From the IMG/VR virus record IMGVR_UViG_3300034157_000065, positions 32,001 to 96,000 of that record: DNA of 64,000 nt, one strand, 5' to 3'. Made by a program: the position numbers and the translations under genes. Numbering within the stretch: position 1 is the stretch's first letter; the number at the start of each line of letters is the position of its first letter. The notes under the pieces are model-generated. The model did no database searches. It worked only from the letters and a program-made list of their open reading frames with translations, and was not told the origin of the DNA. The DNA is from a virus (Duplodnaviria; Caudoviricetes). Below, one piece after another: positions 32,647-59,346 of the stretch.

Positions 32647-32665
32647 TTTTTTAATGAATAAGCTG

Positions 32666-32694
32666 TTGTCAAAGGCCATGAATTGTCGTATAAT
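32666..32694 (+). promoter_or_regulatory. sigma70-type promoter of the CUA tRNA
   Basis: TTGTCA-N17-TATAAT. Confidence 0.75.
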
Positions 32695-32713
32695 GGCCTC
32701 GTTGCAAAAAAAA

Positions 32714-32782
32714 CTGCCGCTAAGGCTGACCTTGGCCCTCTAAAAGCTAAAGGGAACGGTTCGACTCCGTTGCGGTGGACCA
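32714..32782 (+). tRNA. non-canonical tRNA with CUA (amber) anticodon, 69 nt, reduced D-arm
   Basis: Acceptor CTGCCGC/GCGGTGG, A73, CCA; T arm AACGG-TTCGACT-CCGTT; anticodon loop CTCTAAA; D hairpin (A)AGG-CTGA-CCT(T). Confidence 0.75.
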
Positions 32783-32791
32783 ATTTAATAT

Positions 32792-32828
32792 AATGCCAAC
32801 TCATAGCGATGTGATGTTGGCATTTTTA
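32792..32828 (+). terminator. intrinsic terminator after the CUA tRNA
   Basis: AATGCCAAC...GTTGGCATT plus T run. Confidence 0.75.
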
Positions 32829-32884
32829 TTGTCTTTAATTTAATTTCATGCTATAATCAACCAAACTTTTTGGAGTGTTATTAC

Positions 32885-33496: not shown

Positions 33497-34140
33497 AAAG
33501 CTATAACGAATCGGACCCCATCCATCTTACTAGTATTGAGTCTGCACGTAAAATTCTGGTTGCTAAATTTGGCATTGACTTTACTAATGTAACCCGTGAA
33601 AGCCACGGAGACTATGTGGCTTCTGGGAAATATCCTGTCGATATTTATGCTTTAAACCACACCGATCTATACATTGGGATTAAAAATTTATTGCATCTTG
33701 AAAATGGTCTTTTAGTTTCAAAACTCAATGATCCTATGATTAATGAGTTCGTAAGAGATATGAACTCTTTCTTTTATATTTTCGACGCCTTACGTTTTAC
33801 AACGTGGTATAAAGATGTATTCTATTCTATTTTAGATAATATTAAACCTTCTATTATTTTCAAATATAATATTGAGTGTGATGATATGATGATTCATCTT
33901 GACTTAAACCCCAGTATTGAATCAGAAGATTCTATTTACATCACAACAAAAGATATCATTATTCAACATGGTTATGAACCCGCTGGTTTTAAAGCCGTCT
34001 ATCATGCAAATGGTTCGAACTATTTCAGTGATTTGTTGACTTACAAAACTAGACTTTTAAAGGTTTGGAATATTGATGAAAATAGTAGTGATATTGACTA
34101 TAAACGTCTTGGCGATTTAACTGACATGATTAATATTTAA
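33493..34140 (+). CDS. hypothetical protein, family C, C-terminal tag (DMINI)
   Basis: ATGA overlap; shares IQH.YEP.GF and IDYKRLG.L.DMI.I with 34145. Confidence 0.8.
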   Translation: MKSYNESDPIHLTSIESARKILVAKFGIDFTNVTRESHGDYVASGKYPVDIYALNHTDLYIGIKNLLHLENGLLVSKLNDPMINEFVRDMNSFFYIFDALRFTTWYKDVFYSILDNIKPSIIFKYNIECDDMMIHLDLNPSIESEDSIYITTKDIIIQHGYEPAGFKAVYHANGSNYFSDLLTYKTRLLKVWNIDENSSDIDYKRLGDLTDMINI

Positions 34141-58197: not shown

Positions 58198-58226
58198 TTG
58201 ACGTGGAGTGATTTCTTTAGTATAAT
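58198..58226 (+). promoter_or_regulatory. sigma70-type promoter of the RNA ligase
   Basis: TTGACG-N17-TATAAT. Confidence 0.8.
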
Positions 58227-58260
58227 TACGAGATTGAAAATAAAAGAGGATTACATAAAA

Positions 58261-59346
58261 ATGTCTACGTTTAAAGCGACCGTTCTTCCAGTCATTGTTG
58301 AGCCACATCCTAACGCTGATGCGATTGAACTGGCTCGCGTCGGGGATTTCTTCTCGATCATCCAAAAAGGATACCTGAAAACAGGTGATTTGGCTGTTTA
58401 TATTCCAGAAGGTGCTCTTGTTCCTGATTTCATTCAAGAAGAAGTAGGTTGCCTTGGTAAATTGGCAGGTTCCAAGAAAAACCGTTTGAAGCCTTCCATG
58501 CTTCGTGGCATTCTCAGTCAAGGTCTTTGCTTCAAAGCCCGTGATGGCTGGGCTATTGGTGACGATAAAGCCGAAGAATTGGGTATCATCAAGTATGAAG
58601 CTCCTATTCCAGCTTCCATGAATGGTGAGATTTCTAACGTGGGTATTGAAAACACTTTCCACTTTGACATTGAAAACGTCAAGCGTTACCCTGATGTGTT
58701 GGTTGATGGTGAGCTTGTCTCCATGACTGAAAAACTTCATGGTACTTTCACTGTTGCTGGTAGCGTTTATGGCAAAGACCCTATTCCACATGTGGTTGAT
58801 GGTCGCTCATTCGTGAGTAGCAAAGGTTTCTTCAACAAAGGTTTGGTGCTTCGTGATAACGATCAAAATGCTCATAACATTTACATTCGTGTTGCTAAAA
58901 AGTTCAATCTTTACGAAATTACAGCTATCCTTGCAGATCGCTACAAAACTAATGCTTACATTTCAGGTGAGACATTCGGTGCTGTTCAAGATTTGACGTA
59001 TGGTTTGGACAATGGTGTGTTTGATTTCCGTGTGTTCAACGTCTTTCTTGGTTCCCGCACAGAAGCCAGTGGTGTGTTCCCTGTTAATGATGATGAACTT
59101 GAAGCCTTGTTGACTGAGTTCAACTTGAAGCGTGTTCCTGTGCTTTACAAGGGGCCATTCAGCAAAGAAGTCATGTTGCAATACACTGATGGCTTGGAAA
59201 CTTATTCGGGCAAGGAAACACACATTCGTGAGGGTGTTGTGATTGAACCACTTGTTCAACGTCGAGATTCTACTATTGGACGTGTTGTATTGAAAAGTGT
59301 TTCGACAGCTTACCTTTCTCGTAAAGGTGGAACAGAACTAAACTGA
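58261..59346 (+). CDS. ATP-dependent RNA ligase, DRB0094 (Rnl5) family
   Basis: N-terminal PHPNADAIELA.V...GDLAVYIPE domain; motif I TEKLHGT, GETFG, FRVF, EGVV, LKSVS..YL; GAGGA RBS before ATG 58261. Confidence 0.9.
   Translation: MSTFKATVLPVIVEPHPNADAIELARVGDFFSIIQKGYLKTGDLAVYIPEGALVPDFIQEEVGCLGKLAGSKKNRLKPSMLRGILSQGLCFKARDGWAIGDDKAEELGIIKYEAPIPASMNGEISNVGIENTFHFDIENVKRYPDVLVDGELVSMTEKLHGTFTVAGSVYGKDPIPHVVDGRSFVSSKGFFNKGLVLRDNDQNAHNIYIRVAKKFNLYEITAILADRYKTNAYISGETFGAVQDLTYGLDNGVFDFRVFNVFLGSRTEASGVFPVNDDELEALLTEFNLKRVPVLYKGPFSKEVMLQYTDGLETYSGKETHIREGVVIEPLVQRRDSTIGRVVLKSVSTAYLSRKGGTELN

What the first reader, a model, noticed from the sequence alone, without database searches (positions are those of the whole stretch)
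32666..32828. Stand-alone amber-anticodon tRNA with shrunken D-arm and alanine identity signature
Seen: promoter (TTGTCA-N17-TATAAT), a 69-nt tRNA-shaped gene (32714-32782) and a terminator form their own unit. The T arm and CCA end are canonical. The anticodon loop is CUCUAAA (CUA, reads UAG). The D arm is only a 3-4 bp stem with a 4-nt CUGA loop lacking the usual GG, and the anticodon stem has a C.A mismatch. Acceptor pairs are C1-G72, U2.G71, G3.U70 with A73. Established: G3.U70 plus A73 are the main AlaRS determinants and AlaRS ignores the anticodon; a compact D arm with a CUCUAAA loop recalls tRNA-Pyl; C1-G72/A73 occur in bacterial tRNA-Pro. The region is not TAG-recoded: long ORFs are intact in code 11, and TAG ends about 8 genes. 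Inference: a conditional UAG suppressor (possibly Ala), a partner of an element-encoded synthetase outside the window, or a decoy against tRNA-targeting defence.
Basis: partly seen in the sequence, partly recalled or inferred. Interest (0 to 1): 0.8.

Follow-up and report, generated by a model that had tools for sequence, protein, structure and literature searches.

The report
D-stem-less amber tRNA in huge phage
A huge bacteriophage carries a conserved 69-base transfer RNA that would read the stop codon UAG but lacks the D stem every bacterial tRNA has, a shape otherwise known from animal mitochondria, although the phage itself does not use UAG as a sense codon.

Summary
The gene is real. Window 32714-32782 (+) has a consensus promoter and a strong terminator. 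Its sequence is 94% invariant across four related phage records, while the flanks are 48-63% invariant. It is single-copy and occurs in at least 14 contigs as only four sequence variants.

The small D arm does not. A diverged homolog in a 437-kb, 98%-complete phage breaks that stem. It shows compensatory changes at five other pairs instead (6:60, 18:39, 19:38, 23:33, 44:56). These define a D-stem-less tRNA:
- a 9-nt connector (YAAGGCUGA);
- an anticodon helix lengthened by pairing with the variable region;
- a normal T arm.

CUA, U33, G3.U70, U2.G71 and C1-G72 are invariant. Position 73 is A in three variants and G in one.

None of the five genomes is TAG-recoded, and TAG stops are not conserved between orthologs.

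The element encodes a TrpRS and a ribosome recycling factor. In four of five relatives, but not in this window, the tRNA lies just downstream of an RNA copying the 23S GTPase-associated centre. Other first readers of this scan noted that pairing on related DNA.

Best reading: a working UAG-decoding tRNA, probably Ala-charged. Neither expression nor charging has been tested.

The parts
32666..32694 (+). Sigma-70-type promoter, TTGTCA-17-TATAAT. In relatives the same promoter drives the upstream 23S-like RNA plus the tRNA.
   Evidence: 11 of 12 positions match. It is conserved in L002 as TTGCCA-17-TATAAT.
32695..32713 (+). Short 5' leader, presumably removed by RNase P. Positions 32701-32707 (GTTG|CAA) are the scar where relatives carry a ~355-nt 23S GTPase-centre-like RNA.
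   Evidence: Alignment, sequence, motif scan.
32714..32720 (+). Acceptor stem, 5' strand (CUGCCGC). Carries C1, U2 and G3 of the C1-G72, U2.G71 and G3.U70 pairs.
   Evidence: Pairs 1-7:59-65 are 100% kept, with G6:C60 <-> A6:U60 compensatory.
32721..32729 (+). 9-nt connector UAAGGCUGA that replaces the D arm. It is unpaired and contains GG (G11G12).
   Evidence: 8 of 9 nt are identical in the diverged homolog (C8 for U8). The proposed D stem breaks there. RNAalifold leaves it unpaired.
32730..32753 (+). Extended anticodon arm. Helix 17-19:38-40 and helix 20-23:33-36 are separated by one bulged A (36 or 37). A C24xA32 mismatch closes the loop CUCUAAA (32738-32744). The anticodon CUA lies at 32740-32742.
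   Evidence: Double compensatory changes at 18:39, 19:38 and 23:33; G.U to A-U at 21:35; the loop is YUCUAAA in all variants.
32754..32771 (+). G41 linker and T arm (AACGG UUCGACU CCGUU).
   Evidence: C44:G56 <-> G44:C56 is compensatory; the loop is UUCGAMU.
32772..32782 (+). Acceptor stem 3' strand (GCGGUGG), discriminator A (G in one variant) and genome-encoded CCA.
32793..32828 (+). Intrinsic terminator: 8-bp outer stem AUGCCAAC/GUUGGCAU with inner pairs, then UUUUU.
   Evidence: -18.2 kcal/mol, z -5.06. An A-to-G change gives a G.U pair in L049. The 437-kb relative has a different hairpin plus U run at the same place.

Best explanation
This is a phage-encoded transfer RNA that has lost its D stem.

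Proposed structure and maturation:
- It is transcribed from its own promoter and ended by an intrinsic terminator.
- RNase P is presumed to trim it to a 69-nt RNA with an encoded CCA end.
- The RNA has a normal acceptor/T-arm half.
- A 9-nt connector keeps D-loop-like residues (U8, A, GG, A).
- The anticodon helix is lengthened by three pairs borrowed from the variable region. This would restore the anticodon-to-CCA distance, as in D-arm-lacking mitochondrial tRNAs.

Proposed function:
- Its loop (Y32 U33 C34 U35 A36 A37 A38) is a textbook amber-suppressor loop, so it reads UAG.
- G3.U70 is invariant, and AlaRS needs only the acceptor/T minihelix. The most likely charging enzyme is therefore the host AlaRS, giving low-level Ala insertion at UAG in infected cells.
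- No phage gene needs this. The effect would be on termination itself: read-through of host and phage UAG stops, in competition with RF1.

Shown: the gene, its selection, the structure by covariation, the conserved CUA, and the absence of recoding.
Inferred: processing, charging, amino-acid identity, decoding on the ribosome, and benefit to the phage.
For: Gene and transcription unit:
- Promoter and terminator are present.
- A terminator sits at the same place in the 437-kb relative, with a different sequence.
- The locus is intergenic.

Selection:
- 94% of RNA columns are invariant, against 48-63% for the flanks.
- It is single-copy in all five genomes.
- Only four sequence variants occur in 14 contigs from many samples.

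Structure:
- 19 of 19 pairs are kept in all four variants.
- 5 pairs changed on both sides, against 0 in all slid controls. One of 500 shuffles reached the observed value.
- RNAalifold finds the same D-stem-less fold on its own.

Decoder features:
- The 3' half has exactly canonical spacing from anticodon loop to T arm.
- The distance from nt 1 to the loop is 24 nt, against 30-33 nt in about 100 other phage CUA tRNAs.
- CUA, U33, A37 and A38 are unchanged in the homolog whose stems changed at five pairs.

Ala mark:
- G3.U70 occurs in 43 of 46 tRNA-Ala but in only 23 of 1678 other tRNAs in the phage contigs fetched here.
- It is invariant in the family.

Context:
- The element invests in translation: TrpRS, RRF, two RNA ligases, several tRNAs and a tmRNA-like RNA. 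This matches what is described for huge phages (PMC7162821).
- Low GC, TAG as the rarest stop (6-11% against 18-27% for TGA) and possession of a suppressor fit the pre-recoding stage proposed in bioRxiv 10.1101/2021.08.26.457843. That paper also predicts non-canonical suppressor tRNAs that detectors miss.
- Bacterial EF-Tu binds the acceptor stem and T arm, not the D arm (PMC4013460).
Against:
- No in-frame TAG was found in any real gene of five genomes.
- TAG stops turn over freely to TAA between orthologs, so no client codon is known.
- D-arm-lacking tRNAs are documented only with co-evolved mitochondrial factors (PMC4013460). Function on a bacterial ribosome is unproven.
- For Ala identity, pairs 1:72 and 2:71 are C-G and U.G rather than the G-C, G-C of tRNA-Ala, and one variant has G73.
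- The 437-kb relative also has an ordinary cloverleaf CUA tRNA. Plain suppression therefore would not need this odd one.
- Covariation rests on four distinct sequences, and one diverged genome supplies most of the changes.
- The single-sequence fold is not more stable than shuffles (z -1.17).
Confidence: 0.5

Rival explanations
1. It is a tRNA mimic that does not decode. It would be an aminoacylatable or protein-binding RNA that titrates or guides a factor: RF1, EF-Tu, a tRNA-modifying or tRNA-cleaving defence enzyme, or an aminoacyl-tRNA-dependent transferase. It may work together with the 23S GTPase-centre-like RNA that precedes it in most relatives.
For: - No client UAG codons exist in the phage.
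- A normal CUA tRNA coexists with it in the 437-kb relative.
- The loops and the connector are conserved as strongly as the anticodon, as expected for protein-recognition surfaces.
- It is conserved next to a free copy of the ribosome's factor-binding site in four of five genomes.
- The element carries two RNA ligases of the tRNA-repair type, so tRNA-targeting conflict is plausible.
Against: - The loop is precisely that of working amber suppressors, at canonical spacing.
- A decoy has no need for a perfect 7-bp acceptor stem, an encoded CCA and the G3.U70 charging mark.
- No known defence nuclease targets a CUA anticodon (from my own knowledge).
- The window's own phage has lost the 23S-like RNA but kept the tRNA unchanged, so the tRNA works without it.
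Confidence: 0.28
2. It is a UAG decoder charged with tryptophan by the phage's own TrpRS, forming a private synthetase/tRNA pair, rather than by host AlaRS.
For: - All five genomes encode a bacterial-type TrpRS: TIGR00233 at 235 bits, closest to Deinococcus radiodurans TrpRS II at E 2e-102.
- That TrpRS is 95-98% identical between genomes whose other proteins are 30-75% identical.
- The 98%-complete relative has 26 tRNAs but no tRNA-Trp(CCA), while it has two CUA tRNAs.
- CUA differs from CCA at one base.
- TrpRS plus suppressor tRNA modules are reported in recoded Jade phages.
Against: - The genes lie about 98 kb apart.
- The acceptor features do not match bacterial tRNA-Trp (A1-U72, G73, from my own knowledge). 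Here C1-G72 is fixed and G73 occurs in only one variant.
- The Jade module serves TGA, not TAG.
- Co-occurrence within one clade is not independent evidence.
Confidence: 0.1
3. It is a minimal tmRNA-like alanine acceptor: a tRNA-like domain without a message part that enters stalled ribosomes without codon reading.
For: - It shares the layout of the tmRNA tRNA-like domain: G3.U70, A73, CCA, a D loop without a stem, a long helix in place of the anticodon arm and a normal T arm.
- The same genome has a separate 125-nt tmRNA-like RNA.
Against: - Rfam tmRNA gives no match even at E<=10.
- There is no tag reading frame in 69 nt.
- No SmpB family turned up among 271 ORFs.
- The conserved anticodon-type loop is unexplained on this reading.
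Confidence: 0.05
4. It is a decaying pseudo-tRNA or a leftover tRNA fragment from an integration site.
For: - Standard tRNA finders reject it.
- The records are classed as 'provirus'.
Against: - There is strong purifying selection and compensatory substitutions.
- It has its own promoter and terminator.
- The 5' acceptor strand is complete.
- It has an internal, syntenic position in five genomes.
Confidence: 0.03

Closest known systems
Phage-encoded amber suppressor tRNAs of stop-codon-recoded phages (crAss-like, Lak and others; bioRxiv 10.1101/2021.08.26.457843)
   Same: It is phage-borne, has a CUCUAAA anticodon loop and sits in a low-GC genome where TAG is the rarest stop. That paper predicts non-canonical suppressors that detectors miss.
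   Different: The genome is not recoded. The RNA lacks a D stem and is invisible to ARAGORN bacterial mode and to Rfam. It carries the Ala mark G3.U70 rather than Gln- or Trp-type features.
D-arm-lacking mitochondrial tRNAs, e.g. metazoan mt tRNA-Ser(AGY) (PMC4013460)
   Same: There is no D stem, a short connector replaces it, and acceptor and T arms are retained. The length (69 nt) falls in the same range. Extra pairs lengthen the anticodon helix.
   Different: It is found in a bacteriophage that uses bacterial-type promoters and Shine-Dalgarno sites. It has a fully canonical T loop, an encoded CCA, a CUA anticodon and no Ser identity. No co-evolved EF-Tu or synthetase is evident.
tRNA-like domain of tmRNA
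   Same: It shares G3.U70, A73 and a CCA end, a D loop without a stem, a canonical T arm and a long helix in place of the anticodon arm.
   Different: There is no mRNA-like domain or tag frame. It has an anticodon-type 7-nt loop. Rfam tmRNA gives no match, and no SmpB was found in the element.
tRNA-Pyl
   Same: It has a CUA anticodon, a compact 5' region and is missed by some standard models.
   Different: tRNA-Pyl keeps a D stem, has a 3-nt variable loop, a non-canonical T loop and G73 (from my own knowledge). Here the T loop is canonical, the D stem is absent and no PylRS-type family was found.
tRNA-Ala / AlaRS minihelix substrates
   Same: G3.U70 is invariant, A73 is present in three of four variants, and the acceptor/T-arm minihelix that AlaRS needs is intact.
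   Different: Pairs 1:72 and 2:71 are C-G and U.G instead of G-C and G-C. The anticodon is CUA. Charging is untested.

Membership tests
Canonical tRNA (Rfam RF00005 cloverleaf) | Four-armed cloverleaf with a D stem-loop | tested here: not met
   There is no RF00005 match even at E<=10. ARAGORN bacterial mode finds nothing. The candidate D stem breaks in the diverged homolog, with no covariation.
Canonical tRNA (Rfam RF00005 cloverleaf) | 7-bp acceptor stem, discriminator and CCA; 5-bp T stem with a UUCRANY loop; 7-nt anticodon loop with U33 and purine 37 | tested here: met
   Sequence; pairs kept with compensatory changes; loop YUCUAAA in all variants.
Suppressor tRNA of a stop-codon-recoded phage | The host genome of the tRNA uses TAG in frame (code 15-like) | tested here: not met
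   ORF coverage is barely changed by reading TAG as sense in G000 (0.76 to 0.78) and in the 98%-complete G004 (0.77 to 0.79). No in-frame TAG occurs in real genes.
Suppressor tRNA of a stop-codon-recoded phage | Anticodon complementary to a stop codon, conserved among relatives | tested here: met
   CUA is present in all four variants, including the diverged one.
D-arm-lacking tRNA (mitochondrial tRNA-Ser(AGY) type) | D stem replaced by an unpaired connector, with acceptor, anticodon and T helices retained | tested here: met
   Searches support the structure; one search counts against the D stem.
D-arm-lacking tRNA (mitochondrial tRNA-Ser(AGY) type) | Encoded in a metazoan mitochondrial genome and served by adapted mitochondrial factors | tested here: not met
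   It lies in a viral record with sigma-70-type promoters and Shine-Dalgarno-led genes (37% of ORFs against 3% background).
tmRNA | tRNA-like domain plus an internal tag-peptide reading frame; SmpB partner | tested here: not met
   There is no Rfam tmRNA match. The RNA is 69 nt with no frame. No SmpB family appeared in the Pfam census of 271 ORFs.
tRNA-Pyl | Retained D stem with a small loop, 3-nt variable loop, non-canonical T loop; pyl genes nearby | tested here: not met
   The T loop UUCGACU is canonical, the D stem is absent and the variable region is paired. The only synthetase family found is class I W/Y.
AlaRS substrates (alanine identity) | G3.U70 wobble pair in the acceptor stem | tested here: met
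   It is invariant in four variants. The mark is 93% specific to Ala tRNAs in 1724 reference phage-contig tRNAs.
AlaRS substrates (alanine identity) | Actual aminoacylation with alanine | not testable with these tools
   This needs an in vitro charging assay or mass spectrometry. A73 is G in one variant, and pairs 1:72 and 2:71 differ from tRNA-Ala.
Bacterial TrpRS substrates | Anticodon CCA, G73, A1-U72 (from my own knowledge) | tested here: not met
   The anticodon is CUA. C1-G72 is invariant. G73 occurs in only one of four variants. An element-encoded TrpRS does exist.

The most novel reading that the evidence does not exclude
This would be the first D-stem-less, mitochondrion-style tRNA found outside animal mitochondria. 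It would work on bacterial ribosomes as an alanine-inserting UAG reader. In most relatives it would be made from one transcript with a free copy of the ribosome's GTPase-associated centre (the uL11/RF1-sensitive site). Together the two RNAs would form a phage module that weakens RF1 termination at UAG and rewrites stop-codon reading in the infected cell without recoding the phage.
Probability: 0.2. Interest if true: 0.9.

Novelty: new variant of a known kind. Interest (0 to 1): 0.74.

Why it matters
- It would show that the D stem is dispensable for a tRNA used with bacterial translation machinery. The papers I found describe such tRNAs only in metazoan mitochondria.
- It would be a natural, compact, detector-invisible amber suppressor. 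That supports the suspicion that phage suppressor tRNAs are under-counted.
- It would offer a new scaffold for genetic-code engineering.
- An amber-reading tRNA kept under strong selection in a phage with no in-frame TAG raises a clear, testable question: what is stop-codon read-through used for during infection?
- Its linkage to a 23S GTPase-centre mimic gives that question a concrete starting point.

Tried and rejected
- **MFE fold.** The minimum-free-energy fold (CCCU/AGGG helix, 5-nt loop) is refuted by the diverged homolog, where those pairs cannot form.
Rejected on covariation.
- **TAG or TGA recoding.** Rejected for G000-G004.
  - The best in-frame-TAG candidate in G004 (TAG at 34000, minus strand) is antisense to a 355-aa gene.
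  - Long in-frame extensions after TAG in G000 are simply the next genes with their own starts.
- **Conserved read-through sites.** Rejected, because TAG stops are mostly TAA in orthologs.
- **Paralogs of the RNA.** None found in any of the five genomes.
- **Wider homolog hunts.**
  - Six pattern scans of viral contigs, two each of metagenome and GTDB genome contigs, and a TrpRS-anchored scan found only this clade.
  - The pattern returned nothing, although later found a contig that should match it. Absence in those scans is therefore weak evidence.
- **Classifying the canonical CUA tRNA of G004.** Nearest neighbours were ambiguous between Trp-like and Gln-like.
- **Host identification.**
  - The nearest phage isolates give only a weak T4-like virion-protein hit.
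  - The nearest GTDB TrpRS is 47% identical, in a Bacilli MAG.
  - The DnaK of G004 is 73% identical to proteobacterial DnaK.
  - The host remains unknown.
- **Tools unavailable.**
  - The 1.86-Mb metagenome contig could not be opened.

Full report
**What is at the coordinates**

The stretch 32647-32869 is intergenic. It holds four things in order:
- a promoter, TTGTCA-17-TATAAT, at 32666-32694 (11 of 12 consensus positions);
- a 19-nt leader;
- a 69-nt GC-rich RNA at 32714-32782 (58% GC in a 34% GC genome);
- a hairpin plus U run at 32793-32828, folding at -18.2 kcal/mol with z -5.1.

A second promoter then serves the next gene. The RNA has a 7-bp acceptor stem (C1-G72, U2.G71, G3.U70), A73 and an encoded CCA. 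It has a canonical T arm and the loop CUCUAAA.

ARAGORN in bacterial mode does not report it, even with relaxed thresholds. Rfam does not report it even at E<=10. That mode makes 54 calls in 193 kb, so it proves little. The single-sequence fold is not unusually stable (z -1.17).

**The replicon**

The window is part of an IMG/VR record of 192,830 bp, classed as 'provirus' and 59% complete. Most ORFs have no Pfam or PHROG family. Those that do include the following:
- T4-type RNA ligases and a RegB-like endoribonuclease;
- a virion structural protein family;
- Sir2, NAD kinase and signal peptidase;
- a TrpRS closest to Deinococcus radiodurans TrpRS II;
- a ribosome recycling factor.

Genes are led by Shine-Dalgarno motifs (37% against 3% background). 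This translation-heavy inventory matches what is described for huge phages (PMC7162821).

Four related records were found:
- Three are syntenic 'provirus' records of 152-179 kb (G001-G003).
- One is a 437,043-bp contig rated 98% complete (G004).

The window's genome maps collinearly onto the 323-437 kb arm of G004.

**Is the RNA selected?**

Yes.
- Across G000-G003, 94% of its columns are invariant. The adjacent intergenic DNA is 61-63% invariant and the downstream ORF 48%.
- It is single-copy in each genome.
- It appears in 14 contigs from JGI, ENA and Logan assemblies as only four sequence variants.

**Structure**

The three close variants differ at four positions:
- 6:60 (G:C to A:U);
- 21 (G.U to A-U with 35);
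- the discriminator (A to G in one variant).

- It keeps the 69-nt length.
- It changes both sides of 18:39 (C-G to G-C), 19:38 (U-A to C-G), 23:33 (C-G to G-C) and 44:56 (C-G to G-C), as well as 6:60.
- It leaves A10 G11 G12 unchanged.

Counting the revised structure gives:
- 100% of cells paired;
- five pairs with changes on both sides;
- none in any slid control;
- one of 500 shuffles as high.

RNAalifold reaches the same fold unaided, differing only in whether A36 or A37 is the bulge. The MFE alternative cannot form in G004.

The RNA is therefore a D-stem-less tRNA with these parts:
- acceptor stem 1-7:59-65;
- a 9-nt connector, YAAGGCUGA (8 of 9 nt conserved);
- an anticodon helix of 3 + 4 pairs with one bulged A and a C.A closing mismatch;
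- the loop YUCUAAA;
- one linker nucleotide;
- the T arm.

By inference, the connector keeps the usual tertiary players in condensed form (U8, A, G-G, A). The T-loop/D-loop elbow may therefore still form.

The 3' half has exactly canonical spacing. The 5' half is 6-9 nt short: nt 1 to the loop is 24 nt, against 30-33 nt in about 100 other phage CUA tRNAs.

**Does the phage need it?**

No client codons were found.
- Reading TAG as sense barely changes ORF coverage in G000 or in the near-complete G004.
- tblastn comparisons of all ORFs between genomes show no mid-gene TAG in real genes.
- The one long candidate in G004 is antisense to another gene.
- TAG ends 6-11% of genes, against 18-27% for TGA.
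- Those TAG stops are usually TAA in orthologs, so no read-through site is conserved.

This profile is low GC, TAG as the rarest stop, and a suppressor present without recoding. It matches the intermediate stage proposed for the evolution of recoded phages. The same paper predicts suppressors with non-canonical structure (10.1101/2021.08.26.457843).

**Amino-acid identity**

- G3.U70 is invariant here.
- From established knowledge, AlaRS reads the acceptor/T minihelix and ignores the anticodon and D arm. A D-stem-less CUA tRNA could therefore be charged with Ala.
- Against this, 1:72 and 2:71 are not the tRNA-Ala pairs, and one variant has G73.
- The alternative is the element's own TrpRS. It is unusually conserved (95-98% identity). 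The near-complete relative has no tRNA-Trp(CCA) but has two CUA tRNAs.
- The acceptor features do not fit bacterial tRNA-Trp, and nothing links the two genes physically.

**Context in relatives**

In G001-G004 the same promoter first transcribes a ~355-nt RNA, and the tRNA follows within 10-70 nt.
- Its two ends reproduce both halves of the 23S rRNA GTPase-associated centre.
- The first half matches the E. coli 23S gene at about 1049-1084, at 83% identity over 36 nt. It matches all 5,426 genomes, with a median of seven places each.
- The second half carries GCGTAATAGC, found at 23S position 1087.
- The window's phage has a clean deletion of this RNA and keeps the tRNA unchanged.
- Other first readers of this scan noted the same pairing on the related DNA.

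From established knowledge, the uL11/H43-H44 site contacts the elbow of incoming tRNA and affects RF1-dependent termination. The linkage therefore hints at a joint action on UAG termination. That is speculation.

**Verdict**

The best reading is a functional, aminoacylated, UAG-reading tRNA of a shape not previously described outside animal mitochondria, most likely charged with Ala. I put this at about 0.5. The main rival, at about 0.3, is a non-decoding tRNA mimic. A pseudo-gene is effectively excluded.

The replicon itself leaves one open point. The window's own proteins are recorded on a 1.92-Mb contig, and relatives on 1.28-1.86-Mb contigs. I could not inspect or explain these.

Noticed in passing
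L002 ~180-536 (= G001:22975-23330); also G002 ~48.2-48.5 kb, G003 ~125.6-125.9 kb, G004 ~335.9-336.2 kb; absent from the window (scar at 32701-32707): A ~355-nt RNA lies directly upstream of the CUA tRNA, under the same promoter. It reproduces both halves of the 23S rRNA GTPase-associated centre (H43-like GGGCTTAAAAGCAGCCATC; H44-like GGCGTAATAGCACAC), split by a ~250-nt insertion. The first half matches the E. coli 23S gene at about 1049-1084 in all 5,426 genomes.
   Followed up: partly
G000:127897-128021 (L122 7897-8021), about 32 kb beyond the window's end: A 125-nt RNA matches only the tRNA-like domain of Rfam tmRNA (18.6 bits, E 9e-4). It has G3.U70, an ACCA end and its own place in a cluster of small RNA genes.
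   Followed up: no
G000:128160-128233 (L122 8160-8230); G004:389162-389237: These are tRNAs with an 8-nt anticodon loop or a 4-base anticodon. The first scores 34 bits against Rfam tRNA; ARAGORN calls 'agaa' in G004. They may be frameshift-type decoders.
   Followed up: no
G000:163079-164071 (TrpRS) and G000:167915-168538 (RRF): The phage encodes a TrpRS closest to Deinococcus radiodurans TrpRS II (E 2e-102), with a ribosome recycling factor 4 kb away. The TrpRS is 95-98% identical across genomes whose other proteins are 30-75% identical. The near-complete relative has no tRNA-Trp(CCA).
   Followed up: partly
Whole record G000 and relatives: The window's own proteins are on record on a contig of 1,917,244 bp. 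Relatives are on contigs of 1.86, 1.85 and 1.28 Mb, although the near-complete relative is 437 kb. No ORF in G004 exceeds 778 aa. All four 'provirus' records cover the same arm. Whether this is a prophage, a concatemer or something larger is unexplained.
   Followed up: partly
window 58198-59346 and a second ORF in the first half of G000 (not located): There are two RNA ligase genes (PF09414; phrog_968), of the kind phages use to repair tRNAs cut by host anticodon nucleases.
   Followed up: no
L216 96-170; L191 52-122 and L193 5179-5249: Unrelated phage contigs also hold unusual CUA tRNAs. One is a cloverleaf with the same C1-G72, U2.G71, G3.U70 acceptor top and G73 (L216). Another has a shortened 5' half, with nt 1 to the loop at 27 nt (L191/L193).
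   Followed up: no
G004:375947-376020 (L174 1855-1928): The 437-kb relative has an ordinary cloverleaf tRNA(CUA) inside a tRNA array. That phage therefore carries two different amber-reading tRNAs while using the standard code.
   Followed up: partly
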